From Eledone cirrhosa (Eukaryota): a DNA stretch of 64,000 nucleotides. How positions within the stretch are numbered: the first letter of the stretch is position 1; the number at the start of each line of letters is the position of its first letter. The notes under the pieces are model-generated. The model was not told the DNA's origin. It was given only the letters and a program-made list of their open reading frames with translations, and ran no database searches. The position numbers and the translations under genes are program-made. This document shows positions 29,993-64,000 of the stretch, in pieces. The stretch spans positions 20,708,001 to 20,772,000 of the forward strand of contig OZ024759.1 of assembly GCA_964016885.1 (NCBI GenBank), written 5' to 3'.

Positions 29993-30030
29993 ATATTCAT
30001 TCTAGTAAGGTTGCATAGTGAGTCTTGTTA

Positions 30031-30084
<54 letters not shown>

Positions 30085-30174
30085 GGTGTTCGATGCTTAA
30101 AGCATCTGTATGCGGCAGGCCGTTTGAGCACTCGAGGCTCTCATAGAGCAGAGTATGATATCACAGAAAAAAGA

Positions 30175-30362
30175 GAGAATCAGTGTTGCGACGAATGGAA
30201 TTTATTGGACATATTACAATCGTTTCTCTGGCGACCACCTCGAGGCACGATCGATGTGATGATCGAACCTGACACTGAAAATCGCAGGAAAATCTGCTTC
30301 GTAGAATCAAGACGTATCTGAGGACCTTGCGATTTTCAGAGTCAGGTTCGATCATCACATCT
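30175..30362. mobile_element. PLE family C fragment: split hammerhead halves in inverted orientation
   Basis: Homologous to 37780-37904. The 3' half GAAAC-GATT-GTA-ATATGT is on the minus strand (30226-30209); the 5' half ACGTAT-CTGAGGA is on the plus strand (30312-30324). Confidence 0.6.
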
Positions 30363-30369
30363 GTTGTAT

Positions 30370-31222
30370 TTTTCAAGAATGCCTTGTTAATGTGGTTTCA
30401 TGTTGTATTAGAGAGTAAAGACTTAAATTTCTAATATGATACAGTCACAGTGTCGTTCAGTAGTTTTCAAGAATGTCTTGTTAATGTGGTTTCATGTGGT
30501 ATTAGAGAGTAAAGACTTAAATTTCTAATATGATACAGTCACAGTGTCATTCAGTAGTTTTCAAGAATGTCTTGTTAATGTGGTTTCATGTGGTATTAGA
30601 GAGTAAAGACTTAAATTTCTAATATGATACAGTCACAGTGTCGTTCAGTAGTTTTCAAGAATGTCTTGTTAATGTGGTTTCATGTGGTATTAGAGAGTAA
30701 AGACTTAAATTTCTAATATGATACAGTCACAGTGTCGTTCAGTAGTTTTCAAGAATGTCTTGTTAATGTGGTTTCATGTGGTATTAGAGAGTAAAGACTT
30801 AAATTTCTAATATGATACAGTCACAGTGTCGTTCAGTAGTTTTCAAGAATGTCTTGTTAATGTGGTTTCATGTGGTATTAGAGAGTAAAGACTTAAATTT
30901 CTAATATGATACAGTCACAGTGTCGTTCAGTAGTTTTCAAGAATGTTTTCCTAATGTAGTTTCATGTGGTATTAGAGAATAAAGACTTAAGTTTTTAATG
31001 TGTCCTTTGCTAGTTTTCAAGAATATCTTGCTAATGTGGTTTCATGTGGCATTAAAGTAAAAACTTTATTTCTAACGAGATGCAGTCATAGTGTTGTTTT
31101 GTAATTTTCAAAAATGTCTTGCTAATGTGGTTTCATGTGGTATCAGAGTAAAGATTTCAACGTGTAATGTGAAGCAGTCATAATACGTTTGGTAGTTTTC
31201 AAGAATGACTTGTTATTGTGGT
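30370..31222 (+). repeat. 94-bp tandem repeat (6 near-identical + ~3 degenerate copies)
   Basis: CAAGAAT at 30374, 30468, 30562, 30656, 30750, 30844 and 30938, then diverged. Confidence 0.95.
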
Positions 31223-39900: not shown

Positions 39901-39927
39901 CACACACACACAAAAAAAAACTCGTCT

Positions 39928-40012
39928 CGCTCACTCACTCACTCACTCACTCACTCACTCACTCACTCACGCATTCGCTCACTCACTCACTCACTCGTTC
40001 ATTCGTTCTTTC
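39928..40012. repeat. (CACT)n to (CATT/CGTT)n microsatellite leading into the satellite
   Basis: Direct inspection. Confidence 0.9.
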
Positions 40013-43000
40013 GTTCGGTGATTCGGTTCGGTTCGGGTCGGTCGGTTTCGGGTCGGTCATTCGGTTCGGTTCGGGTCGGTCATTCGGTCGGTCATTCGTT
40101 CGGTTCGGTTGGTCGTTCGGTTCGGGTCGGTCATTCGGTTCGGTTCGGCTCGGTCATTCGGTTCGGTTTCGCGTCGGGTCGGTCATTCGGTTCGGTTCAG
40201 TTCCGGTCGATCATTCGGTCGGTCATTCGGTTCGGTTCGGATCGGGTCGGTCATTCGGTTCGGCTCGGTTCGGTTCGGGTCGGTCATTCGGTTCAGTCAT
40301 TCGAACGGTCATTCGGTTCGGTTCGGGTCGGTGATTCGGTTCGGTTCGGTGATTCGGTTCGGGTCGGTGATTCGGTTCGGTCATTCGGTCGGTCAGTCGG
40401 TTCGGTTCGGGTCGGTCATTCGGTTCGGTTCGTTTCCGGTCGGTCATTCGTTTCGGTTCGGGTCAGTCATTCGGTCGGTCATTCGGCTCGGTTCGGGTCG
40501 GAAATTCCGTCGGTCATTCGGTTCGGGTCGGTCATTCGGCTCGGTTCGGGTCGGTCATTCGGTTCGGTTCGGATCGGTCATTCGGTTCAGGTCGTTCGGT
40601 TCGGGTCGGCCATTCGGTTCGGTCATTCGGTTCGGTTCGGGTCGGTCATTCGGTTCGGTCATTCGGTTCGGGTCGGTCATTCGGTTCGGTTCCGGTCGGT
40701 CATTCGGTTCGGGTCGTTCCGTTCTGTTCGCTTCGGGTCGGTCATTCGGTTCGGTTCGGCTCGTTCATTCGGCTTGGTTCGGGTCGGAAATTCCGTCGGT
40801 CATTCGGTTCGGTTCGGATCGGTCATTCGGTCGTTTATTCGGGTTGGTCGTTCGGTTCGGGTCGGTCATTCGGTTCGGTTCGGCTCGGTCATCGGTTCGG
40901 ATCGGTCATTCGGTTCGGTCGTTACGTAGGGTTCGGCTCGGTTCGGTTCGGGTCGATCATTCGGTCGGTCATTTGGTTCGTTTCGGTTCGGATCGGTCAT
41001 TCGGTCGGTCATTCAGTCCGGTTCGGTTCCGGTCGATCATTCGGTCGCTCATTTGGTTCGGTGCTGTTCGGATCGGTCATTCGGTCGGTCATTCGGTTCG
41101 GTTCGGATCGGGTCGGTCATTCGGTTCGGTCGTTCCGTTCGGTTCGGGTCGGTTCGGTTCGGATCGGTCATTCGATCGGTCACTCGGTTCGGGTCGGTCA
41201 TTCGGTCAGTCATTCGGGTCGGTAAGTCGGTTCGGTTCGGGTCGGTCATTCGGTTCGGTTCGCAGCGGTCATTCGGTTCGGTTCGGGTCGGTCATTCGGT
41301 TTGGTTCGGGTCGGTCATTCGGTTCGGTCATTCGGTCGGTCATTCGGTTCGGTCATTCGGTCGGTCATTCGGTTCGGATCGGCTCGGTCATTCGGTTCGG
41401 TTCGGGTCGATCATTCGGTCGGTCATTCGGTTCGGTTCGGGTCGATCATTCGGTCGGTCATTCGGTTCGGTTCGGGTCGGTCATTCGGTTCGGTTCGGGT
41501 CGGTCATTCGGTTCGGTCGTTCCGCTCCGTTCGGGTCGGTCATTCGGTTCGGTTCGGTTCAGGTCGGTCATTCGGTTCGGTTCCGGTCATCGGTTCGGGT
41601 CGGTTATTCGGTTCGGTTCGGCTCGGTCATCGGTTCGGGTCGGTTATTCGGTTCGGTTCCGGTCGATCATTCGCATCGGTCATTCGGTTCGGTTCGGGTC
41701 GGTCATTCGGTCGGTCATTCGGTTCGGTTCGGGTCGGTCATTCGGTCGGTCATTCGGTTCGGTTCGGGTCGGTCATTCGGTCGGTCATTCGGTTCGGTTC
41801 GGGTCGGTCATTCGGTTCGGGTCGGTCATTCGGTTCGGTTCCGGTCGATCATTCGGTTCGGCTCGGTCATCGGTTCGGGTCGGTTATTCGGTTCGGTTCG
41901 GCTCGGTCATCGGTTCGGGTCGGTTATTCGGTTCGGTTCCGGTCGATCATTCGTTCGGTCATTTGGTTCGGTTCGGATCGGTCATTTGGTCGGTCATTCG
42001 GTTCGGTTCCGGTCGGTCATTCGGTTCGGATCGGTCATTCGGTTCGGTTCGGTCGTTACGTACGGTTCGGGTCGATCATTCGGTCGGTCATTTGGTTCGT
42101 TTCGGTTCGGATCGGTCATTCGGTCCGGTTCGGTTCCGGTCGATCATTCGGTCGGTCATTCGGTTCGGTCGTTCCGTTCGGTTCGTTTCGGGTCGGTCAT
42201 TCGGTCGACCATTCGGTTCGGGTCGGTTCGGATCGGTCATTCGATCGGTCATTCGGTTCGGGTCGGTCATTCGGTTCGGGTCTGTCATTCGGTTCGGTTC
42301 GGCTCGGTCATTCGGTTCGGTTCGCTCATTCGGTTCGGGTCGGTCATTCGGTTCGGGTCGGTCAGTCGGTTCGGGTCGATCATTCGGTTCGGTTCGCATC
42401 GGTCATTCGGTTCGGTTCGGGTCGGTCATTCGGTCGGTCATTCGGTTCGGCTCGGTCATTCGGTCAATCATTCGGTTCGGCTCGGTCAGTCATTCGGTTC
42501 GGCTCGGTCATTCGGTCGGTCGTTCCGTACGGTTCGGTTCGTTTCGGGTCGATCATTCGGTCGGTCATTTGGTTCGTTTCGGTTCGGATCGGTCATTCGG
42601 TCGGTCATTCGGTTCGGTTCGGTTCCGGTCGATTATTCGGATCGGTTCGGGTCGGTCATTCGGGTCGGTTCGGGTCGGTCATTCGGTCGGCCATTATTCG
42701 GTTCGGTTCGGGTCGGTCATTCGGTCGGCCATTATTCGGCTCGGTTCGGCTCGGTCATTCGGTCGGTCGGTCATTCGGTCATTCATTCATTCGGTCATTC
42801 ATTCATTCATTCAGTCATTTATTCGGTCATTCATTCGTTCATTTATTCGGTCATTCATTCGTTCATTTATTCGTTCATTCATTCGTTCATTCATTCGTTC
42901 ATTCGGTTCGGTCATTCGGTCGGTCATTCGGTTCGGTTCGGATCTGTCATTCCGTCGGTGATTCGGTTCGGATCAGTCATTCGGTCGGCTCATTCGGTAC

Positions 43001-46000
43001 GGTTCGGATCGGTCATTCGGTCGGTCATTCGGTTCGTTTCGGTGATTCGGTCGGTCATTCGGTTCGGTTCGGGTCGGTCATTCGGTCGGTCATTCAGTTC
43101 CGTTCAGTTCGGGTCGGTCATTCGGTTCGGTTCGGGTCGGTCATTCGGTTCGGGTCGGAAATTCCGTCGGTTATTCGGTTCGGTTCCGGTCGGTCATTCG
43201 GTTCGGTTCCGGTCGGTCATTCGGTTCGGATCGGTCATTCGGTTCGAGTCGGTCATTCGGTTCCGTTCGGGTCTGTCATTCGGTCAGTCATTCGGTTCGG
43301 TTCCGGTCGGTCATTCAGTTCGGTTCGGGTCGGTCATTCGGCTCGGTTCGGATCTGTCATTCGGTTCCGGTCGGTCATTCGGTTCCGGTCGGTCATTCGG
43401 TTCCGGTCGGTCATTCGGTTCGGTCATTCGGTCGGTCATTCGGTTCGGGTCGGTCGTTCGGTTCGGGTCGGTCATTCGGTTCTGTTTCGGTCGGTCATTC
43501 AGTTCGGTTCGGGTCGGTCATTCGGCTCGGTTCGGATCTGTCATTCGGTTTCGGTCGGTCATTCGGTTCGGTTCCGGTCGGTCATTCGGTTCGGTTCGGT
43601 CATTCGGTCGGTCATTCGGTTCGGGTCGGTCGTTCGGTTCGGGTCGGTCATTCGGTTCGGTTCGGGTCGGTCATTCGGCTCGGTTCGGGTCGGTCATTCG
43701 GTTCGGTTCGGTCATTCGGTTCGGTTCGGGTCGGTCATTCGGTTCGGTTCGGGTCGGTCATTCGGTTCGGTTCCGGTCGGTCATTCGGTTCGGGTCGTTC
43801 CGTTCTGTTCGCTTCGGGTCAGTCATTCGGTTCGGTTCGGCTCGATCATTCGGCTTGGTTCGGGTCGGAAATTCCGTCGGTCATTCGGTTCGGTTCGGAT
43901 CGGTCATTCGGTCGTTTATTCGGGTTGGTCGTTCGGTTCGGGTCGGTCATTCGGTTCGGCTCGGTCATCGGTTTGGGTCGGTTATTCGGTGCGGTTCCGG
44001 TCGATCATTCGGTCGGTCATTTGGTTCGGTTCGGATCGGTCATTCGGTCGGTCGTTCGGTTCGGTTCGGTCGTTACGTTCGGTTCGGTTCGGGTCGGTCA
44101 TTTGGTTCGTTTCGGTTCGGATCGGTCATTCGGTCGGTCATTCGGTCCGGTTCGGTTCCGGTCGATCATTCGGTCGCTCATTCGGTTCGGTCGTTCCGTT
44201 CGGTTCGGGTCGGTCATTCGGTCGGCCATTCGGGTCGGTTCGGTTCGGATCGGTCATACGATCGGTCACTCGGTTCGGGTCGGTCATTCGGTCAGTCATT
44301 CGGTACGGGTCGGTCAGTCGGTTCGGTTCGGGTCGGTCATTCGGTTCGGTTCGCATCGGTCATTCGGTTCGGGTCGGTCATTCGGTTCGGTTCGGGTCGG
44401 TCATTCGGTTCGGTCATTCGGTCGGTCATTCGGTTCGGTCATTCGGTCGGTCATTCGGTTCGGTCATTCGGTCGGTCATTCGTTTCGGATCGGCTCGGTC
44501 CTTCGGTTCGGTTCGGGTCGGTCATTCGGTCGGTCATTCGGTTCGGTTCGGGTCGGTCATTCGGTCGGTGATTCGGTTCGGGTCGGTCATTCGGTTCGGT
44601 CGTTCCGCTCCGTTCGGGTCGGTCATTCGGTTCGGTTCCGGTCGATCATTCGGTTCGGTTCTGCTCGATCATCGGTTCGGGTCGGTTATTCGGTTCGGTT
44701 CCGGTCGATCATTCGGTCGGTCATTCGGTTCGGTTCGGATCGGTCATTTGGTCGGTCATTCGGTTCGGTTCGGTTCCGGTCGATCATTCGGTCGGTCATT
44801 CGGTTCGGTTCGGATCGATCATTCGGTTCGGTTCGGTCGTTACGTACGGTTCGGTTCGGGTCGGTCATTCGGTACGTCATTTGGTTCGTTTCGGTTCGGA
44901 TCGGTCATTCGGTCCGGTTCGGTTCCGGTCGATCATTCGGTCGGTCATTTGGTTCGGTGCGGTTAGGATCGGCCATTCGGTCGGTCATTCGGTTCGGATC
45001 GGGTAGGTCATTCGGTTCGGTCGTTCCGTTCGGTTCGTTTCGGGTCGGTCATTCGGTCGGTCACTCGGTTCGGGTCGGTCATTCGGTTCGGGTCGGTGAG
45101 TCGGTTCGGGTCGATCATTCGGTTCGGTTCGCATCGGTCATTCGGTTCGGTTCGGGTCAGTCATTCGATTCGGTTCGGGTCGGTCACTCGGTCGGTCATT
45201 CGGTTCGGCTCGGTCATTCGGTCGGTCGTTCCGTACGGTTCGGTTCGGTCATTCTCTCGGTCATTCGGTTCGGCTCGGTTCGTTTCGGGTCGATCATTCG
45301 GTCGGTCATTTGGTTCGTTTCGGTTCGGATCGGTCATTCGGTCGGTCATTCGGTTCGGTTCGGTTCCGGTCGATTATTCGGATCGGTTCGGGTCGGTCAT
45401 TCGGTTCGGTTCCGGTCGGTCATAAGGTCGGTCATTCGGGTCGGTCATTCGGTCGGCCATTATTCGGTTCGGTTCGACTCGGTCATTCGGTCGGTCGGTC
45501 ATTCGGTTATTCATTCATTCGGTCATTCATTCATTCATTCATTTATTCGGTCATTCATTCGTTCATTTATTCGTTCATTCATTCGTTCATTCATTCGTTC
45601 ATTCGGTTCGGTTCGGATCTGTCATTCCGTCGGTGATTCGATTCGGATCAGTCATTCGGTCGGATCATTCGGTACGGTTCGGATCGGTCATTCGGTTCGG
45701 TTCGGGTCGGTCATTCGGTCGGTCATTCAGTTCCGTTCGGTTCGGGTCGATCATTCGGTTCGGTTCGGGTCGGAAATTCCGTCGGTTATTCGGTTCGGTT
45801 CCGGTCGGTCATTCGGTTCGGATCGGTCATTCGGTTCAGGTCGGTCATTCGGTTCCGTTCGGGTCTGTCATTCGGTCGGTCATTCGGTTCTGTTTCGGTC
45901 GGTCATTCAGTTCGGTTCGGGTCGGTCATTCGGCTCGGTTCGGATCTGTCATTCGGTTCCGGTCGGTCATTCGGTTCGGTTCGGGTCGGTCATTCGGTTC

Positions 46001-49000
46001 GTGTCGGTTATTCGGTTCGGTTCCGGTCGATCATTCGGTCGGTCATTTGGTTCGGTTCGGATCGGTCATTCGGTTCGGGTCGGTTATTCGGTTCGGTTCC
46101 GGTCGATCATTCTGTCGGTCATTCGGTTCGGTTCGGTCATTTGGTTCGGTTCTGTTCGGTCATTCGTTTCGGTTCCGGTCGGTCATTCGGCTCGGCGCGG
46201 TCAATCGGTCAGTCATTCGGTGCGGCTTGGTCATTCGGTTCGATTCGGTCGTTCCGTACGGTTCGGTTCGGTCATTTCGTACTGTTCGGTTCGGCTCGGT
46301 CATTCTGGCGGTCATTCGGTTCGGCTCGGTTCGTTTCGGGTCGATCATTTGGTTCGTTTCGGTTCGGATCGGTCATTCGGTTCGGTTCGATTCCGGTCGA
46401 TCATTCGGTCGGTCATTTGGCTCGGTGCGGTTCGGATCGGTCATTCGGTCCGGATCGGGTCGGTCATTCGGTTCGGTTCGGCTCGGTCGTCGGTTCGGGT
46501 CGGTTATTCGGTTCGGTTCCGGTCGATCATTCGGTCGGTCATTCGGTTCGGTTCGGATCGGTCATTCGGTCGGTCATTCGGTTCGGTTCGGTTCCGGTCG
46601 ATCATTCGGTCGGTCATTTGGTTCGGTTCGGATCGGTCATTTGGTCGGTCATTCGGTTCGGTCATTCGGTTCGGTTCGGTCGTTACGTACGGTTCGGTTC
46701 GGGTCGATCATTCGGTCGGTCATTTGGTTCGTTTCGGATCGGTCATTCGGTCCGGTTCGGTTCCGGTCGATCATTCGGTCGGTCATTTGGTTCGGTGCGG
46801 TTAGGATCGGCCATTCGGTCGGTCATTCGGTTCGGATCGGGTAGGTCATTCGGTTCGGTCGTTCCGTTCGGTTCGTTTCGGGTCGGTCATTCGGTCGGCC
46901 ATTCGGTTCGGGTCGGTTCGGATCGGTCATTCGATCGGTCACTCGGTCATTCTGGCGGTCATTCGGTTCGGCTCGATTCGTTTCGGTTCGGTCGATCATT
47001 TGGTTCGGATCGGTCATTCGGTCGGTCATTCGGTTCGGTTCGGTTCCGGTCGATCATTCGGTCGGTCATTTGGTTCGGTTCGGATCGGTCATTTGGTCGG
47101 TCATTCGGTTCGGTCATTCGGTTCGGTTCGGTCGTTACGTACGGTTCGGTTCGGGTCGATCATTCGGTCGGTCATTTGGTTCGTTTCGGATCGGTCATTC
47201 GGTCCGGTTCGGTTCCGGTCGATCATTCGGTCGGTCATTTGGTTCGGTGCGGTTAGGATCGGCCATTCGGTCGGTCATTCGGTTCGGATCGGGTAGGTCA
47301 TTCGGTTCGGTCGTTCCGTTCGGTTCGTTTCGGGTCGGTCATTCGGTCGGCCATTCGGTTCGGGTCGGTTCGGATCGGTCATTCGATCGGTCACTCGGTC
47401 ATTCTGGCGGTCATTCGGTTCGGCTCGATTCGTTTCGGTTCGGTCGATCATTTGGTTCGGTTCGGATCGGTCATTCGGTCGGTTATTCGGTTCGGTTCCG
47501 GTCGATCATTCGGTCGGTCATTTGGTTCGGTTCGGATCGGTCACTTGGTCGGTCATTCGGTCGGTCATTCGGTTCGGTTCGGATCGGTCATTCGTTTCGG
47601 TTCGGTCGTTACGTACGGCTCGGTTCGGTTCGGGTCGATCATTCGGTCGGTCATTTGGTTCGTTTCGGTTCGGATCTGTCATTCGGTCGGTCATTCGGTA
47701 CGGTTCGGTTCCGGTCGATCATTCGGTCGCTCATTTGGTTCGGTGCTGTTCGGATCGGTCATTCGGTCGGTCATTCGGTTCGGATCGGGTCGGTCATTCG
47801 GTTCGGTCGTTCCGGTCGGTCATTCGATCGGTCACTCGGTTCGGGTCGGTCATTCGGTCAGTCATTCGGTTCGGGTCGGTGAGTCGGTTCGGTTCGGGTC
47901 GGTCATTCGGTTCGGTTCGCATCGGTCATTCGGTTCGGTTCGGGTCAGTCATTCGGCTCGGGTCGGTCATTCGGTTCGGTCATTCGGTCGGTCATTCGGT
48001 TCGGTCATTCGGTCGGTCATTCGGTTCGGATCGGCTCGGTCATTCGGTTCGGGTCGGTCATTCGGTCGGTCATTCGGTTCGGTTCGGGTCGGTCATTCGG
48101 TCGGTCATTCGGTTCGGGTCGGTCATTCGGTTCGGTCGTTCCGCTCCGTTCGGGTCGGTCATTCGGTTCGGCTCGGTTCAGGTCGGTCATTCGGTTCGGT
48201 TCCGGTCGGTCGTTCGGTTCGCATCGGTCATTTGGTTCGGTTCGGGTCGGTCATTCGGTCGGTCATTCGGTTCGGTTCGGTCATTCGGTCGGTCATTCGG
48301 TTCGGTTAGGGTCGGTATTTCGGTCGGTCATTCGGTTCGGGTCGGTCATTCGGTTCGGGTCGGTCATTCGGTTCGGTTCTGGTCGATCATTCGGTCGGTC
48401 ATTTGGTTCGGTTCGGATCGGTCATTCGGTCGGTCATTCGGTTCGGATCGGGTCGGTCATTCGGTCGGTCATTCGGTTCGCTTCGGGTCGGTCATTTGGT
48501 TCGGTCCGGCTCGGTTCGGGTCGGAAATTCCGTCGGTCATCCGGTTCGGTTCGGTTCCGGTCGGTCATTCGGTTTGGTTCGGATCGGTCATTCGGTTCGG
48601 TTCGGGTCGATCATTCGGTCGGTCATTTGGTTCGTTTCGGTTCGGATCGGTCATTCGGTCGGTCATTCGGTCCGGTTCGGTTCCGGTCGCTCATTCGGTC
48701 GGTCATTTGGTTCGGTGCGATTAGGATCGGTCATTCGGTCGGTCATTCGGTTCGGTCGTTCCGTTCGGTTCGGTTCGAGTCGGTCATTCGGTCGGCCATT
48801 CGGGTCGGTTCGGATCGGTCATTCGATCGGTCACTCGGTTCGGGTCGGTGATTCGGTTCGGGTCTGTCATTCGGTTCGGTTCGGCTCGGTCATTCGGTTC
48901 GTTTCGGGTCGCTCATTCGGTTCGGGTCGGTCAGTCGGTTGGTCATTCGGTTCGGTCATTCGGTTCGGTCATTCGGTCGGTCATTCGTTTCGGATCGGGT

Positions 49001-52000
49001 CGGTCATTCGGTCTGTCATTCGGTTCGGTTCGGGTCGGTCATTCGGTCGGTCATTCGGTTCGGTTCGGGTCGGTCATTCGGTCGGTGATTCGGTTCGGTT
49101 CGGGTCGGTCATTCGGTTCGGTCGTTCCGCTCCGTTCGGGTCGGTCATTCGGTTCGGTTCGGTTCAGGTCGGTCATTCGGTTCGGTTCGGTTCAGGTCGG
49201 TCATTCGGTTCGGTTCCGGTCGGTCGTTCGGTTCGCATCGGTCATTCGGTTCGGTTCGGGTCGGTCATTCGGTTCGGTTAGGGTCGGTATTTCGGTCGGT
49301 CATTCGGTTCGGGTCGGTCATTCGGTCGGTCATTCGGTTCGGGTCGGTCATTCGGTTCGGTTCCGGTCGATCATTCGGTTCGGTTCTGCTCGGTCATCGG
49401 TTCGGGTCGGTTATTCGGTTCGGTTCCGGTCGATCATTCGGTCGGTCATTTGGTTCGGTTCGGTTCGGATCGGTCATTCGGTTCGGTTCGGTTCCGGTTG
49501 ATCATTCGGTCTGTCAGTTGGTTCGGTTCGGATCGGTCATTCGGTTCGGTTCGGTTCCGGTCGATCATTCGGTTCGGATCGGTCATTTGGTCGGTCATTC
49601 GGTTCGGTTCGGTTCCGGTCGATCATTCGGTCGGTCATTCGGTTCGGTTCGGATCGGTCATTCGGTTCGGTTCGGTCGTTACGTACGGTTCGGTTCGGGT
49701 CGATCATTCGGTAGGTCATTTGGTTCGTTTCGGTTCGGATCGGTCATTCGGTCCGGTTCGGTTCCGGTCGATCATTCGGTCGGTCATTTGGTTCGGTGCG
49801 GTTAGGATCGGCCATTCGGTCGGTCATTCGGTTCGGATCGGGTCGGTCATTCGGTTCGGTCGTTCCGTTCGGTTCGTTTCGGGTCGGTCATTCGGTCGGT
49901 CACTCGGTTCGGGTCGGTGATTCGGTTCGGGTCTGTCATTCGGTTCGGTTCGGCTCGGTCATTCGGTTCGGTTCGCTCATTCGGTTCGGTTCGGGTCGGT
50001 CATTCGGTTCGGTTCGGTCGTTACGTACGGTTCGGCTCGGTTCGGTTCGGGTCGGTCATTCGGTCGGTCATTCGGTTCGGTTCGGGTCGGTCATTCGGTC
50101 GGTCATTCGGTTCGGTTCGGTCGTTCCGCTCCGTTCGGGTCGGTCATTCGGTTCGGCTCGGTTCAGGTCGGTCATTCGGTTCGGTTCCGGTCGGTCGTTC
50201 GGTTCGCATCGGTCATTCGGTTCGGTTCGGGTCGGTCATTCGGTCGGTCATTCGGTTCGGTTCGGTCATTCGGTTCGGTCATTCGGTCGGTCATTCGGTT
50301 CGGTTAGGGTCGGTATTTCGGTCGGTCATTCGGTTCGGGTCGGTCATTCGGTCGGTCATTCGGTTCGGGTCGGTCATTCGGTTCGGTTCTGGTCGATCAT
50401 TCGGTCGGTCATTTGGTTCGGTTCGGATCGGTCATTCGGTCGGTCATTCGGTTCGGATCGGGTCGGTCATTCGGTCGGTCATTCGGTTCGCTTCGGGTCG
50501 GTCATTTGGTTCGGTTCGGCTCGGTCATTCGGCTCGGTTCGGGTCGGAAATTCCGTCGGTCATCCGGTTCGGTTCGGTTCCGGTCGGTCATTCGGTTCGG
50601 TTCGGATCGGTCATTCGGTTCGGCTCGGTTCGGTTCGGGTCGATCATTCGGTCGGTCATTTGGTTCGTTTCGGTTCGGATCGGTCATTCGGTCGGTCATT
50701 CGGTCCGGTTCGGTTCCGGTCGCTCATTCGGTCGGTCATTTCGTTCGGTGCGATTAGGATCGGTCGTTCCGTTCGGTTCGGTTCGAGTCGGTCATTCGAT
50801 CGGTCACTCGGTTCGGGTCGGTGATTCGGTTCGGGTCTGTCATTCGGTTCGGTTCGGCTCGGTCATTCGGTTCGGTTCGGCTCGGTCATTCGGTTCGTTT
50901 CGGGTCGCTCATTCGGTTCGGGTCGGTCAGTCGGTTGGTCATTCGGTTCGGTCATTCGGTTCGGTCATTCGGTTCGGTCATTCGGTCGGTCATTCGTTTC
51001 GGATCGGGTCGGTCATTCGGTCTGTCATTCGGTTCGGTTCGGGTCGGTCATTCGGTCGGTCATTCGGTTCGGTTCGGGTCGGTCATTCGGTCGGTGATTC
51101 GGTTCGGTTCGGGTCGGTCATTCGGTTCGGTCGTTCCGCTCCGTTCGGGTCGGTCATTCGGTTCGGTTCGGTTCAGGTCGGTCATTCGGTTCGGTTCAGG
51201 TCGGTCATTCGGTTCGGTTCCGGTCGGTCGTTCGGTTCGCATCGGTCATTCGGTTCGGTTCGGTTCGGGTCGGTCATCGGTTCGGGTCGGTTATTCGGTT
51301 CGGTTCCGGTCGATCATTCGGTCGGTCATTTGGTTCGGTTCGGTTCGGATCGGTCATTCGGTCGGTCATTCGGTTCGGTTCCGTTCCGGTCGATCATTCG
51401 GTCTGTCAGTTGGTTCGGTTCGGATCGGTCATTCGGTTCGGTTCGGTTCCGGTCGATCATTCGGTTCGGTTCTGCTCGGTCATCGGTTCGGGTCGGTTAT
51501 TCGGTTCGGTTCCGGTCGATCATTCGGTCGGTCATTTGGTTCGGTTCGGTTCGGATCGGTCATTCGGTCGGTCATTCGGTTCGGTTCGGTTCCGGTCGAT
51601 CATTCGGTCTGTCAGTTGGTTCGGTTCGGATCGGTCATTCGGTTCGGTTCGGTTCCGGTCGATCATTCGGTTCGGTTCTGCTCGGTCATCGGTTCGGGTC
51701 GGTTATTCGGTTCGGTTCCGGTCGATCATTCGGTCGGTCATTTGGTTCGGTTCGGTTCGGATAGGTCATTCGGTCGGTCATTCGGTTCGGTTCGGTTCCG
51801 GTCGATCATTCGGTTCGGTTCGGATCGGTCATTTGGTCGGTCATTCGGTACGGTTCGGTTCCGGTCGGTCATTCGGTTCGGTTCGGATCGGTCATTCGGT
51901 TCGGTCGTTACGTACGGTTCGGTTCGGGTCGATCATTCGGTAGGTCATTTGGTTCGTTTCGGTTCGGATCGGTCATTCGGTCCGGTTCGGTTCCGGTCGA

Positions 52001-55000: not shown

Positions 55001-58000
55001 TCATTCGGTTCGGTTCCGGTCGGTCATAAGGTCGGTCATTCGGGTCGGTCATTCGGTCGGCCATTATTCGGTTCGGTTCGACTCGGTCATTCGGTCGGTC
55101 GGTCATTCGGTTATTCATTCATTCGGTCATTCATTCATTCATTCATTTATTCGGTCATTCATTCGTTCATTTATTCGTTCATTCATTCGTTCATTCATTC
55201 GTTCATTCGGTTCGGTCATTCGGTTCGGGTCGGTCATTCGGTTCGGTTCCGGTCTGTCATTCAGTTCGGATCGGTCATTCGGTCGGTCATTCGGTTCCGG
55301 TCTGTCATTCAGTTCGGATCGGTCATTCGGTCGGTCATTCGGTTCGGTTCGGATCTGTCATTCCGTCGGTGATTCGATTCGGATCAGTCATTCGGTCGGA
55401 TCATTCGGTACGGTTCGGATCGGTCATTCGGTCGGTCATTCGGTTCGGATCGGTCATTCGGTCGGTCTTTCGGTTCGGTTCTGGTCGGTCATTCGGTTCG
55501 GTTCGGAAATTCCGTCGGTTATTCGGTTTGGTTCCGGTCGGTCATTCGGTTCGGATCGGTCATTCGGTTCGGGTCGGTCATTCGGTTCCGTTCGGTTCGG
55601 GTCGATCATTCGGTTCGGTTCGGGTCGGAAATTCCGTCGGTTATTCGGTTCGGTTCCGGTCGGTCATTCGGTTCGGATCGGTCATTCGGTTCGGGTCGGT
55701 CATTCGGTTCCGTTCGGGTCTGTCATTCGGTCGGTCATTCGGTTCGGTTCCGGTCGGTCATTCGGTTCTGTTTCGGTCGGTCATTCAGTTCGGTTCGGGT
55801 CGGTCATTCGGCTCGGTTCGGATCTGTCATTCGGTTCCGGTCGGTCATTCGGTTCGGTTCGGTTATTCGGTTCGGGTCGGTCGTTCGGTTCGGGTCGGTC
55901 ATTCGGTTCGTTTCGGGTCGGTCATTCGGTTCGTGTCGGTTATTCGGTTCGGTTCCGGTCGATCATTCTGTCGGTCATTTGGTTCGGTTCGGTTCGGTCA
56001 TTTGGTTCGGTTCGGTTCGGTCATTCGTTTCGGTTCCGGTCGGTCATTCGGTTCGGCGCGGTCAATCGGTCAGTCATTCGGTGCGGCTTGGTCATTCCGT
56101 TCGATTCGGTCGTTCCGTACGGTTCGGTTCGGTCCTTCCCTACTGTTCTGTTCGGCTCGGTCATTCTGGCGGTCATTCGGTTCGGCTCGGTTCGTTTCGG
56201 GTCGATCATTTGGTTCGTTTCGGATCGGTCATTCGGTCCGGTTCGGTTCCGGTCGATCATTCGGTCGGTCATTTGGTTCGGTGCGGTTAGGATCGGCCAT
56301 TCGGTCGGTCATTCGGTTCGGATCGGGTAGGTCATTCGGTTCGGTCGTTCCGTTCGGTTCGTTTCGGGTCGGTCATTCGGTCGGCCATTCGGTTCGGGTC
56401 GGTTCGGATCGGTCATTCGATCGGTCACTCGGTCATTCTGGCGGTCATTCGGTTCGGCTCGATTCGTTTCGGTTCGGTCGATCATTTGGTTCGGTTCGGA
56501 TCGGTCATTCGGTCGGTTATTCGGTTCGGTTCCGGTCGATCATTCGGTCGGTCATTTGGTTCGGTTCGGATCGGTCACTTGGTCGGTCATTCGGTCGGTC
56601 ATTCGGTTCGGTTCGGATCGGTCATTCGTTTCGGTTCGGTCGTTACGTACGGCTCGGTTCGGTTCGGGTCGATCATTCGGTCGGTCATTTGGTTCGTTTC
56701 GGTTCGGATCTGTCATTCGGTCGGTCATTCGGTACGGTTCGGTTCCGGTCGATCATTCGGTCGCTCATTTGGTTCGGTGCTGTTCGGATCGGTCATTCGG
56801 TCGGTCATTCGGTTCGGATCGGGTCGGTCATTCGGTTCGGTCGTTCCGGTCGGTCATTCGATCGGTCACTCGGTTCGGGTCGGTCATTCGGTCAGTCATT
56901 CGGTTCGGGTCGGTGAGTCGGTTCGGTTCGGGTCGGTCATTCGGTTCGGTTCGCATCGGTCATTCGGTTCGGTTCGGGTCAGTCATTCGGCTCGGGTCGG
57001 TCATTCGGTTCGGTCATTCGGTCGGTCATTCGGTTCGGTCATTCGGTCGGTCATTCGGTTCGGATCGGCTCGGTCATTCGGTTCGGGTCGGTCATTCGGT
57101 CGGTCATTCGGTTCGGTTCGGGTCGGTCATTCGGTCGGTCATTCGGTTCGGGTCGGTCATTCGGTCGGTCATTCGGTTCGGGTCGGTCATTCGGTTCGGT
57201 CGTTCCGCTCCGTTCGGGTCGGTCATTCGGTTCGGCTCGGTTCAGGTCGGTCATTCGGTTCGGTTCCGGTCGGTCGTTCGGTTCGCATCGGTCATTTGGT
57301 TCGGTTCGGGTCGGTCATTCGGTCGGTCATTCGGTTCGGTTCGGTCATTCGGTCGGTCATTCGGTTCGGTTAGGGTCGGTATTTCGGTCGGTCATTCGGT
57401 TCGGGTCGGTCATTCGGTTCGGGTCGGTCATTCGGTTCGGTTCTGGTCGATCATTCGGTCGGTCATTTGGTTCGGTTCGGATCGGTCATTCGGTCGGTCA
57501 TTCGGTCGGTCATTCGGTTCGGATCGGGTCGGTCATTCGGTCGGTCATTCGGTTCGCTTCGGGTCGGTCATTTGGTTCGGTCCGGCTCGGTTCGGGTCGG
57601 AAATTCCGTCGGTCATCCGGTTCGGTTCGGTTCCGGTCGGTCATTCGGTTTGGTTCGGATCGGTCATTCGGTTCGGTTCGGGTCGATCATTCGGTCGGTC
57701 ATTTGGTTCGTTTCGGTTCGGATCGGTCATTCGGTCGGTCATTCGGTCCGGTTCGGTTCCGGTCGCTCATTCGGTCGGTCATTTGGTTCGGTGCGATTAG
57801 GATCGGTCATTCGGTCGGTCATTCGGTTCGGTCGTTCCGTTCGGTTCGGTTCGAGTCGGTCATTCGGTCGGCCATTCGGGTCGGTTCGGATCGGTCATTC
57901 GATCGGTCACTCGGTTCGGGTCGGTGATTCGGTTCGGGTCTGTCATTCGGTTCGGTTCGGCTCGGTCATTCGGTTCGTTTCGGGTCGCTCATTCGGTTCG

Positions 58001-61000
58001 GGTCGGTCAGTCGGTTGGTCATTCGGTTCGGTCATTCGGTTCGGTCATTCGGTCGGTCATTCGTTTCGGATCGGGTCGGTCATTCGGTCTGTCATTCGGT
58101 TCGGTTCGGGTCGGTCATTCGGTCGGTCATTCGGTTCGGTTCGGGTCGGTCATTCGGTCGGTGATTCGGTTCGGTTCGGGTCGGTCATTCGGTTCGGTCG
58201 TTCCGCTCCGTTCGGGTCGGTCATTCGGTTCGGTTCGGTTCAGGTCGGTCATTCGGTTCGGTTCGGTTCAGGTCGGTCATTCGGTTCGGTTCCGGTCGGT
58301 CGTTCGGTTCGCATCGGTCATTCGGTTCGGTTCGGGTCGGTCATTCGGTTCGGTTAGGGTCGGTATTTCGGTCGGTCATTCGGTTCGGGTCGGTCATTCG
58401 GTCGGTCATTCGGTTCGGGTCGGTCATTCGGTTCGGTTCCGGTCGATCATTCGGTTCGGTTCTGCTCGGTCATCGGTTCGGGTCGGTTATTCGGTTCGGT
58501 TCCGGTCGATCATTCGGTCGGTCATTTGGTTCGGTTCGGTTCGGATCGGTCATTCGGTTCGGTTCGGTTCCGGTTGATCATTCGGTCTGTCAGTTGGTTC
58601 GGTTCGGATCGGTCATTCGGTTCGGTTCGGTTCCGGTCGATCATTCGGTTCGGATCGGTCATTTGGTCGGTCATTCGGTTCGGTTCGGTTCCGGTCGATC
58701 ATTCGGTCGGTCATTCGGTTCGGTTCGGATCGGTCATTCGGTTCGGTTCGGTCGTTACGTACGGTTCGGTTCGGGTCGATCATTCGGTAGGTCATTTGGT
58801 TCGTTTCGGTTCGGATCGGTCATTCGGTCCGGTTCGGTTCCGGTCGATCATTCGGTCGGTCATTTGGTTCGGTGCGGTTAGGATCGGCCATTCGGTCGGT
58901 CATTCGGTTCGGATCGGGTCGGTCATTCGGTTCGGTCGTTCCGTTCGGTTCGTTTCGGGTCGGTCATTCGGTCGGTCACTCGGTTCGGGTCGGTGATTCG
59001 GTTCGGGTCTGTCATTCGGTTCGGTTCGGCTCGGTCATTCGGTTCGGTTCGCTCATTCGGTTCGGTTCGGGTCGGTCATTCGGTTCGGTTCGGTCGTTAC
59101 GTACGGTTCGGCTCGGTTCGGTTCGGGTCGGTCATTCGGTCGGTCATTCGGTTCGGTTCGGGTCGGTCATTCGGTCGGTCATTCGGTTCGGTTCGGTCGT
59201 TCCGCTCCGTTCGGGTCGGTCATTCGGTTCGGCTCGGTTCAGGTCGGTCATTCGGTTCGGTTCCGGTCGGTCGTTCGGTTCGCATCGGTCATTCGGTTCG
59301 GTTCGGGTCGGTCATTCGGTCGGTCATTCGGTTCGGTTCGGTCATTCGGTTCGGTCATTCGGTCGGTCATTCGGTTCGGTTAGGGTCGGTATTTCGGTCG
59401 GTCATTCGGTTCGGGTCGGTCATTCGGTCGGTCATTCGGTTCGGGTCGGTCATTCGGTTCGGTTCTGGTCGATCATTCGGTCGGTCATTTGGTTCGGTTC
59501 GGATCGGTCATTCGGTCGGTCATTCGGTTCGGATCGGGTCGGTCATTCGGTCGGTCATTCGGTTCGCTTCGGGTCGGTCATTTGGTTCGGTTCGGCTCGG
59601 TCATTCGGCTCGGTTCGGGTCGGAAATTCCGTCGGTCATCCGGTTCGGTTCGGTTCCGGTCGGTCATTCGGTTCGGTTCGGATCGGTCATTCGGTTCGGC
59701 TCGGTTCGGTTCGGGTCGATCATTCGGTCGGTCATTTGGTTCGTTTCGGTTCGGATCGGTCATTCGGTCGGTCATTCGGTCCGGTTCGGTTCCGGTCGCT
59801 CATTCGGTCGGTCATTTCGTTCGGTGCGATTAGGATCGGTCGTTCCGTTCGGTTCGGTTCGAGTCGGTCATTCGATCGGTCACTCGGTTCGGGTCGGTGA
59901 TTCGGTTCGGGTCTGTCATTCGGTTCGGTTCGGCTCGGTCATTCGGTTCGGTTCGGCTCGGTCATTCGGTTCGTTTCGGGTCGCTCATTCGGTTCGGGTC
60001 GGTCAGTCGGTTGGTCATTCGGTTCGGTCATTCGGTTCGGTCATTCGGTTCGGTCATTCGGTCGGTCATTCGTTTCGGATCGGGTCGGTCATTCGGTCTG
60101 TCATTCGGTTCGGTTCGGGTCGGTCATTCGGTCGGTCATTCGGTTCGGTTCGGGTCGGTCATTCGGTCGGTGATTCGGTTCGGTTCGGGTCGGTCATTCG
60201 GTTCGGTCGTTCCGCTCCGTTCGGGTCGGTCATTCGGTTCGGTTCGGTTCAGGTCGGTCATTCGGTTCGGTTCAGGTCGGTCATTCGGTTCGGTTCCGGT
60301 CGGTCGTTCGGTTCGCATCGGTCATTCGGTTCGGTTCGGTTCGGGTCGGTCATCGGTTCGGGTCGGTTATTCGGTTCGGTTCCGGTCGATCATTCGGTCG
60401 GTCATTTGGTTCGGTTCGGTTCGGATCGGTCATTCGGTCGGTCATTCGGTTCGGTTCCGTTCCGGTCGATCATTCGGTCTGTCAGTTGGTTCGGTTCGGA
60501 TCGGTCATTCGGTTCGGTTCGGTTCCGGTCGATCATTCGGTTCGGTTCTGCTCGGTCATCGGTTCGGGTCGGTTATTCGGTTCGGTTCCGGTCGATCATT
60601 CGGTCGGTCATTTGGTTCGGTTCGGTTCGGATCGGTCATTCGGTCGGTCATTCGGTTCGGTTCGGTTCCGGTCGATCATTCGGTCTGTCAGTTGGTTCGG
60701 TTCGGATCGGTCATTCGGTTCGGTTCGGTTCCGGTCGATCATTCGGTTCGGTTCTGCTCGGTCATCGGTTCGGGTCGGTTATTCGGTTCGGTTCCGGTCG
60801 ATCATTCGGTCGGTCATTTGGTTCGGTTCGGTTCGGATAGGTCATTCGGTCGGTCATTCGGTTCGGTTCGGTTCCGGTCGATCATTCGGTTCGGTTCGGA
60901 TCGGTCATTTGGTCGGTCATTCGGTACGGTTCGGTTCCGGTCGGTCATTCGGTTCGGTTCGGATCGGTCATTCGGTTCGGTCGTTACGTACGGTTCGGTT

Positions 61001-64000
61001 CGGGTCGATCATTCGGTAGGTCATTTGGTTCGTTTCGGTTCGGATCGGTCATTCGGTCCGGTTCGGTTCCGGTCGATCATTCGGTCGGTCATTTGGTTCG
61101 GTGCGGTTAGGATCGGCCATTCGGTCGGTCATTCGGTTCGGATAGGGTCGGTCATTCGGTTCGGTTCGCTCATTCGGTTCGGTTCGGGTCGGTCATTCGG
61201 TTCGGTTCGGTCGTTACGTACGGTTCGGCTCGGTTCGGTTCGGGTCGATCATTCGGTCGGTCATTTGGTTCGTTTCGGTTCGGATCGGTCATTCGGTCGG
61301 TCATTCGGTACGGTTCGGTTCCGGTCGATCATTCGGTCGCTCATTTGGTTCGGTGCTGTTCGGATCGGTCATTCGGTCGGTCATTCGGTTCGGATCGGGT
61401 CGGTCATTCGGTTCGGTCGGTCATTCGATCGGTCACTCGGTTCGGGTCGGTCATTCGGTCAGTCATTCGGTTCGGGTCGGTGAGTCGGTTCGGTTCGGGT
61501 CGGTCATTCGGTTCGGTTCGCATCGGTCATTCGGTTCGGTTCGGGTCAGTCATTCGGTTCGGGTCGGTCATTCGGTTCGGTCATTCGGTCGGTCATTCGG
61601 TTCGGTCATTCGGTCGGTCATTCGGTTCGGATCGGCTCGGTCCGGTTCGGGTCGGTCATTCGGTCGGTCATTCGGTTCGGTTCGGGTCGGTCATTCGGTC
61701 GGTCATTCGGTTCGGTTCGGTCGTTCCGCTCCGTTCGGGTCGGTCATTCGGTTCGGCTCGGTTCAGGTCGGTCATTCGGTTCGGTTCCGGTCGGTCGTTC
61801 GGTTCGCATCGGTCATTCGGTTCGGTTCGGGTCGGTCATTCGGTCGGTCATTCGGTTCGGTTCGGTCATTCGGTTCGGTCATTCGGTCGGTCATTCGGTT
61901 CGGTTAGGGTCGGTATTTCGGTCGGTCATTCGGTTCGGGTCGGTCATTCGGTCGGTCATTCGGTTCGGGTCGGTCATTCGGTTCGGTTCTGGTCGATCAT
62001 TCGGTCGGTCATTTGGTTCGGTTCGGATCGGTAATTCGGTCGGTCATTCGGTTCGGATCGGGTCGGTCATTCGGTCGGTCATTCGGTTCGCTTCGGGTCG
62101 GTCATTTGGTTCGGTTCGGCTCGGTCATTCGGCTCGGTTCGGGTCGGAAATTCCGTCGGTCATCCGGTTCGGTTCGGTTCCGGTCGGTCATTCGGTTCGG
62201 TTCGGATCGGTCATTCGGTTCGGCTCGGTTCGGTTCGGGTCGATCATTCGGTCGGTCATTTGGTTCGTTTCGGTTCGGATCGGTCATTCGGTCGGTCATT
62301 CGGTCCGGTTCGGTTCCGGTCGCTCATTCGGTCGGTCATTTGGTTCGGTGCGATTAGGATCGGTCGTTCCGTTCGGTTCGGTTCGAGTCGGTCATTCGGT
62401 CGGCCATTCGGGTCGGTTCGGATCGGTCATTCGATCGGTCACTCGGTTCGGGTCGGTGATTCGGTTCGGCTCGGTCATTCGGTTCGGTTCGGCTCGGTCA
62501 TTCGGTTCGGTTCGGCTCGGTCATTCGGTTCGTTTCGGGTCGCTCATTCGGTTCGGGTCGGTCAGTCGGTTGGTCATTCGGTTCGGTCATTCGGTCGGTC
62601 ATTCGTTTCGGATCGGGTCGGTCATTCGGTCTGTCATTCGGTTCGGTTCGGGTCGGTCATTCGTTCGGTCATTCGGTTCGGTTCGGGTCGGTCATTCGGT
62701 CGGTGATTCGGTTCGGTTCGGGTCGGTCATTCGGTTCGGTCGTTCCGCTCCGTTCGGGTCGGTCATTCGGTTCGGTTCGGTTCAGGTCGGTCATTCGGTT
62801 CGGTTCAGGTCGGTCATTCGGTTCGGTTCCGGTCGGTCGTTCGGTTCGCATCGGTCATTCGGTTCGGTTCGGGTCGGTCATCGGTTCGGGTCGGTTATTC
62901 GGTTCGGTTCCGGTCGATCATTCGGTCGGTCATTCGGTTCGGTTCGGTTCCGGTCGATCATTCGGTCTGTCAGTTGGTTCGGTTCGGATCGGTCATTCGG
63001 TTCGGTTCGGTTCCGGTCGATCATTCGGTTCGGTTCTGCTCGGTCATCGGTTCGGGTCGGTTATTCGGTTCGGTTCCGGTCGATCATTCGGTCGGTCATT
63101 TGGTTCGGTTCGGTTCGGATCGGTCATTCGGTCGGTCATTCGGTTCGGTTCGGTTCCGGTCGATCATTCGGTCTGTCAGTTGGTTCGGTTCGGATCGGTC
63201 ATTCGGTTCGGTTCGGTTCCGGTCGATCATTCGGTTCGGTTCTGCTCGGTCATCGGTTCGGGTCGGTTATTCGGTTCGGTTCCGGTCGATCATTCGGTCG
63301 GTCATTTGGTTCGGTTCGGTTCGGATCGGTCATTCGGTCGGTCATTCGGTTCGGTTCGGTTCCGGTCGATCATTCGGTTCGGTTCGGATCGGTCATTTGG
63401 TCGGTCATTCGGTACGGTTCGGTTCCGGTCGGTCATTCGGTTCGGTTCGGATCGGTCATTCGGTTCGGTCGTTACGTACGGTTCGGTTCGGGTCGATCAT
63501 TCGGTAGGTCATTTGGTTCGTTTCGGTTCGGATCGGTCATTCGGTCCGGTTCGGTTCCGGTCGATCATTCGGTCGGTCATTTGGTTCGGTGCGGTTAGGA
63601 TCGGCCATTCGGTCGGTCATTCGGTTCGGATCGGGTCGGTCATTCGGTTCGGTCGTTCCGTTCGGTTCGTTTCGGGTCGGTCATTCGGTCGGTCACTCGG
63701 TTCGGGTCGGTGATTCGGTTCGGTTCGGTTCGGCTCGGTCATTCGGTTCGGTTCGCTCATTCGGTTCGGGTCGGTCATTCGGTTCGGGTCGGTGAGTCGG
63801 TTCGGGTCGGTCATTCGGTTCGGTTCGCATCGGTCATTCGGTTCGGTTCGGGTCAGTCATTCGATTCGGTTCGGGTCGGTCATTCGGTCGGTCATTCGGT
63901 TCGGCTCGGTCATTCGGTCGTTCCGTACGGTTCGGTTCGGTCATTCTCTCGGTCATTCGGTTCGGCTCGGTTCGTTTCGGGTCGATCATTCGGTCGGTCA
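40013..64000 (+). repeat. CpG-rich complex satellite (TTCGG / GGTC / CATT words) with a ~9.08-kb higher-order repeat; runs off the window
   Basis: Continuous TTCGGTTCGGGTCGGTCATTCGG-type sequence; rare variants recur at 9034-9088 bp offsets. Confidence 0.97.

What the first reader, a model, noticed from the sequence alone, without database searches (positions are those of the whole stretch)
40013..64000. >24-kb CpG-saturated, strand-asymmetric TTCGG/GGTCATTC satellite in an AT-rich genome
Seen: composition switches abruptly from TA-microsatellite DNA to a satellite with roughly one CpG per 5 bp. The plus strand is G/T-rich and very A-poor, and is built combinatorially from a few words (TTCGG, TCGG, GTCGG, ATCGG, TCATTCGG) rather than a fixed monomer. 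CpG-to-TpG/CpA variants are a minority, suggesting little methylation-driven decay or strong homogenisation. Knowledge: CATTC is the human HSat2/3 pentamer, and TTCGG/TTCGGG are one base from telomeric TTAGG/TTAGGG. Inference: candidate centromeric/pericentromeric or subtelomeric satellite, not a family I recognise.
Basis: partly seen in the sequence, partly recalled or inferred. Interest (0 to 1): 0.75.

Follow-up and report, generated by a model that had tools for sequence, protein, structure and literature searches.

The report
Single-locus CpG-rich satellite escaping methylation
A 29-kb run of short CG-rich repeats has one 55-kb sister run 178 kb away and no other copies in this mollusc's genome assembly; it likely grew from a simple four-letter repeat and is probably not a centromere, but its mutation pattern suggests that it escapes DNA methylation even where its neighbours appear methylated.

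Summary
The satellite is real, but it is not a genome-wide centromeric or telomeric family. The window holds 24 kb of a 28.9-kb array (B; one CpG per 6.2 bp, A 7%). All 1,031 genome-wide matches to a diagnostic 17-mer fall in B or in one 55-kb sister array (A) 178 kb away, mid-chromosome, on the same strand. The unit is a variable monomer, TCATTCGG+(TTCGG)n+NTCGG. Both edges of B grade into TCAC/TCAT microsatellite, its likely cradle. The centres are homogenised by whole-word slippage and kb-scale duplications, and the ends are old. A sits between two 98%-identical copies of a ~450-bp flank, so it was likely seeded by local template switching. The unexpected result: CpGs in the arrays mutate no faster than other C/G (ratio about 1), whereas young transposon copies beside A show about 7-fold CpG decay. 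A lies inside a ~1.4-Mb CpG-depleted domain, and B lies 10 kb beyond its edge. The arrays therefore likely behave as giant, self-made CpG islands that stay unmethylated in the germline. No function, transcript or CENP-A link is shown. The HSat and telomere resemblances are coincidental.

The parts
39926..40012 (+). (CTCA)n microsatellite grading through CATTCG/TCGT/TTCG words into the array; likely birth site. The right edge of B (C20:20,776,877 onward, outside the window) grades back into TCAT/TCAC repeats.
40013..64000 (+). Array B, a simple-sequence satellite with monomer TCATTCGG+(TTCGG)n+[G/A/C/-]TCGG; continues to C20:20,776,876 (28,864 bp in all). Sister array A (55,352 bp) lies at C20:20,514,196-20,569,547, outside the window, on the same strand, between two copies of a ~450-bp flank (20,513,762-20,514,195 and 20,569,548-20,570,001).
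42795..42902 (+). Relict (TCAT)n/(TCGT) island inside the array; probable ancestral state
45523..45602 (+). Second relict TCAT/TCGT island
55127..55206 (+). Third relict TCAT/TCGT island (two more lie past the window end)
47172..56205 (+). First copy of a ~9.08-kb tandem duplication
   Evidence: 9,052 matched bases, 0 substitutions, 3 whole-word indels (30, 12, 12 bp)
56206..64000 (+). Second copy of the 9.08-kb duplication (runs ~1.3 kb past the window)
29001..31000 (.). Step in CpG o/e of non-tandem DNA: about 0.40 to the left (domain ~19.35-20.74 Mb, which contains array A), about 0.77 to the right; ~10 kb left of array B

Best explanation
This is a non-coding simple-sequence satellite confined to one locus (two arrays, 29 and 55 kb), which likely arose from a TCAC/TCAT microsatellite, likely grew by whole-word slippage and kb-scale unequal exchange, and likely stays unmethylated in the germline, so its CpGs are copied rather than eroded. 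Steps: (1) Birth at B: TCAT mutated through TCGT to TCGG, and the compound word TCATTCGG plus one-base-extended TCGG words were amplified (inferred from the graded edges and relict islands). (2) Turnover: words are gained and lost whole, and 0.2-9-kb blocks are duplicated in the array centres while the ends age (pattern shown; molecular route, unequal exchange or break-induced replication, inferred). (3) Seeding of A: a piece of the family was placed between two copies of a ~450-bp unique flank (structure shown); local template switching at short microhomologies is the likely route. (4) CpG richness is a property of the amplified word. New mutations run toward AT, with no CpG excess (shown), which implies little or no germline 5mC (inferred), even for A inside a domain whose transposons decay fast at CpG. 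No selected function is needed.
For: Single locus: 70/70 37-mer hits, 1,031/1,031 17-mer hits, and 999 of 1,000 hits of a 19-mer allowing one mismatch lie in A or B. Graded microsatellite edges and internal TCAT islands. Ends are unique (56-78% singleton 31-mers in the terminal bins at both ends of A and the left end of B, 40% at B's right end) and centres homogenised (0-1% over B 7-25 kb). Repeated 61-mers within arrays: 52% in A, 72% in B; shared between arrays: 0.1-0.3%. The complex word GGAAATTCCGTCGG is shared in an identical 52-bp context and survives in A only at its ends, which shows common descent. Indels between recent duplicates are whole words. The two flank copies differ at 4 of ~257 unique bases and occur nowhere else at full length. 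The flank starts with TCATTCACTCA, the 11-mer that also begins B's right flank (13 occurrences in 664 kb). A 92-bp short-read contig bridges the A-to-flank junction with no difference in runs X1 and X3 (one sample, possibly the assembly's own). CpG/non-CpG transition rate ratio: A 1.06 (0.70-1.61), B 0.74 (0.39-1.42), and 0.8-0.9 with rare variants only. Controls: young transposon copies within 60 kb of A 7.0 (4.5-11.0), young copies in the right domain 2.7 (1.3-5.7), other tandem repeats 26/98 vs 86/814 sites. Non-coding: B's + strand has long ORFs only because A is rare, has 0 ATG, and its word lengths are not multiples of 3.
Against: The ends of A do not align specifically to the ends of B, so the donor piece and the direction B-to-A are inferred, and the flank duplication could be younger than A. 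Methylation was not measured. The array spectrum comes from polymorphisms among duplicates (276 events in A, 118 in B), while the transposon control uses majority consensuses, and choosing young copies by non-CpG divergence inflates their ratio. In Octopus bimaculoides, satellites are relatively more methylated than other repeats (PMC9476566, passages), the opposite of what is inferred here. B's position 10 kb from a domain edge is unexplained, though such edges are common on this chromosome. The 9-kb duplication with 0 substitutions could be partly an assembly artefact.
Confidence: 0.7

Rival explanations
1. The arrays are functional, CpG-island-like regulatory DNA: B helps set the edge of the 1.4-Mb methylated domain, acts as a binding platform for CpG-reading or zinc-finger proteins, or is the repeat exon of a chromatin-acting long non-coding RNA.
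For: B lies ~10 kb from a sharp CpG o/e step. Both arrays meet CpG-island composition and lack CpG decay. Strict single-strand polarity; the + strand RNA is predicted to fold into long G-U-rich hairpins (-32 kcal/mol per 120 nt, - strand -9). Precedents: DNA-encoded protection of CpG-rich young repeats in vertebrates (PMC5001583, abstract and section 19); HSat3 as a transcription-factor platform (PMC11526998, passages).
Against: The step lies outside the array. A, inside the domain, has not raised CpG o/e in its flanks (0.4-0.5 on both sides). Folding is only slightly better than dinucleotide shuffles (-28). Amnionless, host of the Z-linked lncRNA Zfest, is on contig C28, so this is probably not the octopus Z-chromosome lncRNA locus.
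Confidence: 0.16
2. The pair of arrays is, or flanks, the chromosome-specific centromere of this chromosome.
For: Gene-poor surroundings: one host gene found in 664 kb by scanning 279 ORFs. High tandem-repeat content, homogenised centres with old edges, and G/C strand asymmetry as in Drosophila dodeca, which is centromeric on one chromosome only (PMC4542561, passages). Large satellites in this genome may be chromosome-biased in general.
Against: Only 29+55 kb, split by 178 kb of ordinary transposon-rich DNA with no gap. Larger blocks exist on the same chromosome: three 10-kb samples at 0.2, 1 and 2 Mb are wholly a 23-bp AT-rich satellite (32,082 exact 27-mer hits; also on C1 and C9). A appears to be a recent local insertion.
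Confidence: 0.07
3. Array A was retrotransposed from a B transcript by a LINE enzyme, the ~450-bp flank pair being a long target-site duplication; the family would then be a transcribed, mobilisable satellite.
For: The flank-insert-flank structure with 3' microhomology fits target-primed insertion; a reverse-transcriptase ORF lies 2.5 kb from A; long target duplications for RTE elements are recalled, not checked.
Against: A random insertion lands within 180 kb of its source with probability about 1.2e-4; same orientation; no dispersed copies.
Confidence: 0.04
4. Much of the structure (array length, second array) is an assembly artefact.
For: 9,052 bases without a substitution between duplicate copies.
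Against: The copies differ by whole-word indels; A and B share almost no 61-mers; short-read contigs hold array words and both junctions of the duplicated flank.
Confidence: 0.03

Closest known systems
Simple-sequence satellites under concerted evolution (Smith unequal-crossover / molecular-drive model; reviewed in PMC8122249, passages read)
   Same: Head-to-tail short units on one strand, whole-unit slippage, higher-order duplications, homogenised centre and older edges, more similarity within than between arrays.
   Different: Single locus of 84 kb; variable-length monomer; visible microsatellite cradle and a dated daughter array; CpG o/e 2 with no CpG decay.
Human HSat2/HSat3 (PMC11526998, passages; (CATTC)n definition recalled)
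   Same: Short diverged words including CATTC, strict strand asymmetry, kb-scale higher-order repeats.
   Different: CATTC here is the join TCAT+TCGG: CATTCG 1,034 times in B, CATTCC 8, CATTCCATTC 0. Mollusc, not primate; tens of kb, not Mb.
Drosophila dodeca satellite (PMC4542561, passages)
   Same: GC-rich short-unit satellite on one chromosome, G-rich versus C-rich strands, contains TCGGT.
   Different: No CCCGTACT; no CCC tracts of that kind and no predicted DNA hairpin advantage; CENP-A link untested.
Vertebrate CpG islands and young CpG-rich repeats that evade methylation (PMC5001583, abstract and section 19)
   Same: GC 58%, CpG o/e 2.0, inferred unmethylated inside a methylated domain.
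   Different: 29-55 kb of tandem repeat in an invertebrate with gene-body-type methylation; no promoter found; status inferred from mutations only.
Octopus Z-linked lncRNAs Zmast/Zfest (10.1101/2024.12.09.627507, parts 1-3 of 5 read)
   Same: Non-coding, mid-chromosome locus in an octopod-like genome.
   Different: The Zfest host gene Amnionless is on another contig; no expression data; the Zmast sequence was not seen.

Membership tests
Simple-sequence satellite under concerted evolution | Long head-to-tail array of short units on one strand | tested here: met
Simple-sequence satellite under concerted evolution | Within-array similarity exceeds between-array similarity; homogenised centre, divergent ends | tested here: met
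Centromeric satellite | CENP-A occupancy / primary constriction | not testable with these tools
   needs CUT&Tag or FISH
Centromeric satellite | Present on most chromosomes (usual, not universal) | tested here: not met
   1,031 of 1,031 hits at one locus
Centromeric satellite | Array of hundreds of kb to Mb | tested here: not met
   29 and 55 kb in the assembly; collapse not excluded
Telomeric, subtelomeric or interstitial telomeric repeat | Tandem TTAGGG | tested here: not met
   0 dimers; 9 single TTAGGG in B, 1 in A
Telomeric, subtelomeric or interstitial telomeric repeat | Near a chromosome end | tested here: not met
   20.7 and 16.5 Mb from the contig ends
HSat2/HSat3 | Tandem CATTC / CATTCGATTC backbone (definition recalled) | tested here: not met
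   CATTCCATTC 0; CATTCGATTC 4 in B, 7 in A
Dodeca satellite | CCCGTACTGGT / CCCGTACTCGGT units | tested here: not met
   unit as given in PMC4542561
CpG island (works like) | GC above 50%, CpG o/e above 0.6 (thresholds recalled) | tested here: met
   58%, 2.03-2.05
CpG island (works like) | Unmethylated in the germline | tested here: inconclusive
   Indirect only: no CpG hypermutability against 7-fold in neighbours
CpG island (works like) | Promoter association | tested here: inconclusive
   No exon found near B
Zmast/Zfest-type sex-chromosome lncRNA locus | On the Z chromosome with Amnionless | tested here: not met
   Amnionless matches on C28 only; one marker gene
Zmast/Zfest-type sex-chromosome lncRNA locus | Sex-biased transcript | not testable with these tools
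   needs RNA-seq of both sexes

The most novel reading that the evidence does not exclude
A microsatellite has built its own giant CpG island: CpG density alone shields the array from germline methylation in a mollusc. The copy that jumped 178 kb into a methylated domain stayed unmethylated, and the parent array helps fix that domain's edge. This would be a natural transplant experiment showing that DNA-encoded CpG-island protection operates outside vertebrates, on tens of kilobases of pure satellite.
Probability: 0.2. Interest if true: 0.65.

Novelty: new member of a known kind. Interest (0 to 1): 0.36.

Why it matters
As a satellite it is an unusually readable life history (cradle, growth, local seeding) of a known kind of repeat, in a genome that is full of locus-specific arrays. 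The part that could matter is the methylation contrast. How invertebrates target gene-body-type methylation, and whether CpG-dense DNA is intrinsically protected outside vertebrates, is open. The same sequence family sits here both inside and outside a CpG-depleted domain, so one look at 5mC calls from existing long reads would test it.

Tried and rejected
Coding role: long + strand ORFs (up to 1,252 aa in B) come from A-poverty, B has no ATG, and the - strand is closed. Structured RNA family: no Rfam hit in the window. G-quadruplex: G4Hunter-like score never reaches 1.2; DNA hairpins no better than shuffles. CENP-B box (motif recalled): 1 in A, 0 in B. Segmental duplication of A and B with their flanks: no shared flanks. 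Collinearity of A's ends with B's ends: both carry GGAAATTC ~490 bp from the left edge, but alignment scores are not above other windows; rejected as unproven. Host gene of the CpG-depleted domain: 279 ORFs were scanned with Pfam (150 of 157 long ORFs; 129 further candidates from 880) plus two splice-site scans; none found, but only ~430 kb of ~1.4 Mb was read and small exons would be missed. An exon-like stretch at window 29390-29524 is a dispersed repeat. Expression: no RNA holder listed, which is no evidence either way. RAD-seq run X4 had no cover on the unique flank. Summed contig depth over array words (~1,800-2,500 against ~10 at the junction; about 100 similar places in the assembly) gives no sign of a large collapse but is not a copy number. 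Scattered (TCGG)n microsatellites exist (140 overlapping hits; the first 100 listed fall in 3 short loci on C2), but no further compound array.
Full report
Observation. The array begins at window 40013 and fills the rest of the window. It has one CpG per 6.2 bp (o/e 2.03) and 7.4% A, against one CpG per 74 bp in the first 40 kb. The window is G000:C20:20,708,001-20,772,000, on a 37.3-Mb contig of a 3.0-Gb genome. The nearest host gene found, an LRR-Ig membrane protein 87 kb to the right, has named relatives in gastropods and bivalves at 37-45% identity and unnamed ones at 75-89%. The animal is therefore a mollusc. 'Octopod-like' rests on my recall of its SINEs and microsatellites and on unchecked notes of this scan.

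Extent and distribution. Neighbouring DNA (464 kb, later 664 kb) shows that this array, B, is 28,864 bp and that a sister, A, of 55,352 bp lies 178 kb to the left on the same strand, with no assembly gap between or around them. Genome-wide pattern counts put the whole family there: 70 of 70 hits for a 37-mer, 1,031 of 1,031 for a 17-mer (614 in A, 417 in B), and 999 of 1,000 for a 19-mer with one mismatch. Seven of 9 hits of a 16-mer lie there as well; the other two are single hits on C11 and C18. Only one organism's public runs held 20% of the sampled words (one study, possibly the assembly's own sample).

Anatomy. Seven words cover 80% of B exactly and 19% with one mismatch. A second-order Markov control trained on the array reaches 69%, so the word order is the more telling feature: conditional entropy falls from 2.27 to 0.90 bits. 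In effect the monomer is TCATTCGG, then zero to three TTCGG, then a linker G/A/C/-TCGG; lengths of 12, 23, 28, 18 and 13 bp dominate in B. B's left edge grades from (CTCA)n through TCGT/TTCG words, its right edge grades back into TCAT/TCAC repeats, and five relict TCAT/TCGT islands lie inside. Array ends are rich in singleton 31-mers and centres are not. B contains a 9.08-kb duplication with 0 substitutions and 3 whole-word indels; a 2.5-kb duplication has 7 substitutions and 5 word indels; A has a 3.8-kb duplication with 1 substitution. A and B share vocabulary, including a three-step variant word in an identical 52-bp context that A keeps only at its ends, but share only 0.1-0.3% of 61-mers. 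This is common descent followed by separate homogenisation, as in the standard models (PMC8122249, passages).

Origin of the second array. A has sharp ends and lies between two copies of a ~450-bp flank that differ at 4 of ~257 non-repetitive bases (1.6%, CI 0.4-3.9%) and occur nowhere else at full length. The flank starts with the 11-mer that also starts B's right flank; of 13 occurrences in 664 kb, 9 are at B's right edge and 2 are the flank copies. Short-read contigs of runs X1 and X3 bridge the A-to-flank junction exactly and also hold the other junction (one sample). I infer a templated insertion by local template switching. Proximity argues against retrotransposition (p about 1e-4). Against this reading, A's ends do not align preferentially to B's ends, so the donor segment has been turned over, or the flank duplication is younger than A.

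Methylation signature. In non-tandem DNA, CpG o/e steps from about 0.40 to about 0.77 near window 30,000. The low domain runs from about 19.35 to 20.74 Mb (9 of 9 samples at 19.4-20.2 Mb are 0.32-0.51) and contains A. Such mosaics are common: 55 informative samples of 60 along the chromosome range from 0.32 to 0.98, and 5 were wholly satellite. Transposon copies decay at CpG 4.8-fold (left) and 2.2-fold (right) faster than at other C/G (8 of 10 seed families had enough copies). Among young copies the ratios are 7.8 and 2.7, and 7.0 (4.5-11.0) for 25 copies within 60 kb of A (selecting young copies inflates this somewhat). Other tandem repeats give about 2.5 on the left and 2.0 on the right. 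The arrays give 1.06 (0.70-1.61) for A and 0.74 (0.39-1.42) for B, and 0.8-0.9 when only rare variants are counted; CpG transitions roughly equal CpG transversions. Rare variants run 97 GC-to-AT against 27 AT-to-GC, an equilibrium near 28% GC against 58% observed, so GC content is kept by amplification, not by mutation. The simplest reading is that both arrays are unmethylated in the germline. In O. bimaculoides under 10% of CpGs are methylated, mostly in gene bodies, and satellites are relatively more methylated (PMC9476566, passages and section 6; its supplementary Fig. S9 was not seen), so this is a mild surprise. Vertebrate precedent for protection by CpG density is in PMC5001583 (abstract, section 19). 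Alternatives are exclusion by heterochromatin or efficient repair during array turnover.

Centromere: disfavoured by size, single locus, the apparent recent local origin of A, and larger satellites on the same chromosome, above all a 23-bp AT-rich repeat filling the samples at 0.2, 1 and 2 Mb (continuity between samples inferred). It is not excluded, because dodeca is centromeric on one chromosome (PMC4542561, passages) and 31,464 of 32,082 hits of the 23-bp repeat are on one strand, so it too may be mostly one block. Telomere and HSat: defining words are absent (PMC11526998, passages). Sex-chromosome lncRNA: the Zmast/Zfest preprint (parts 1-3 of 5; supplements closed, sequence not seen) suggested a test, and Amnionless maps to C28, not C20. 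Coding or structured RNA: rejected.

Novelty. Full-text searches found no description of this repeat: 'ttcgg'+'satellite'+'repeat' gave 1 paper, on Brassica/Raphanus microsatellites; 'cephalopod'+'centromere'+'satellite'+'chromosome-level' gave 7, and none of the 5 listed was on cephalopod centromeres by title; see also (listings only, apart from the papers named above). This scan's notes hold no look-alike but describe other giant one-locus arrays in this genome (unchecked). Verdict: a new, species-level member of a known kind of satellite, most likely neutral, with one testable oddity, its apparent escape from methylation. Interest 0.36.

Noticed in passing
G000:C20 samples at 0.2, 1.0 and 2.0 Mb (L084-L086): AT-rich 23-bp satellite filling all three 10-kb samples, probably a block of 2 Mb or more at the chromosome end; 32,082 exact 27-mer hits genome-wide, outposts on C1 (437.8 Mb) and C9 (6.9 Mb). 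A better centromere or heterochromatin candidate than the finding.
   Followed up: partly
G000:C20 ~19.35-20.74 Mb; edge at window ~30,000: About 1.4-Mb CpG-depleted domain (o/e ~0.4) with no exon found in the 430 kb read; possibly one giant methylated gene.
   Followed up: partly
L010:1654-3045 minus strand (C20:20,863,654-20,865,045): Single-exon LRFN/SALM-like LRR-Ig membrane protein; the frame is open for ~460 further low-complexity codons upstream, and the closest relatives are 588-807 aa long.
   Followed up: partly
L090 (C20 6.0 Mb) and L107 (C20 24.0 Mb): 54-bp and 235-bp satellites, each filling a whole 10-kb sample at 95-96% identity.
   Followed up: no
C20:20,570,834-20,582,348 (L024, L023): 11.5-kb AT-rich, nearly CpG-free tandem array starting 1.3 kb right of array A.
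   Followed up: no
window 12745-16872: 4.1-kb satellite of a 31-bp unit, 134 copies, 93% identity, with no CpG in the unit.
   Followed up: no
window 26237-28522: Compound array of 43-, 59- and 16-bp units built from ACC-rich words, another microsatellite-derived grammar.
   Followed up: no
L030:1333-3723 minus strand: 5'-truncated non-LTR retrotransposon ORF (797 aa, reverse transcriptase plus PHD-like finger) 2.5 kb left of array A.
   Followed up: partly
window 35485-35853, L033:3267-3563, L018:525-821: Dispersed ~650-bp repeat carrying a single C2H2-like finger, 91-95% identical between copies.
   Followed up: no
G000:C28:56.35-56.39 Mb (L041-L043): Amnionless exons on contig C28, which is longer than 90 Mb although numbered after much smaller contigs; consistent with a Z chromosome larger than in Octopus vulgaris.
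   Followed up: no
window 34840-34940, 30100-30360, 37520-37580: Short inverted-repeat elements forming near-perfect hairpins (MITE-like).
   Followed up: no
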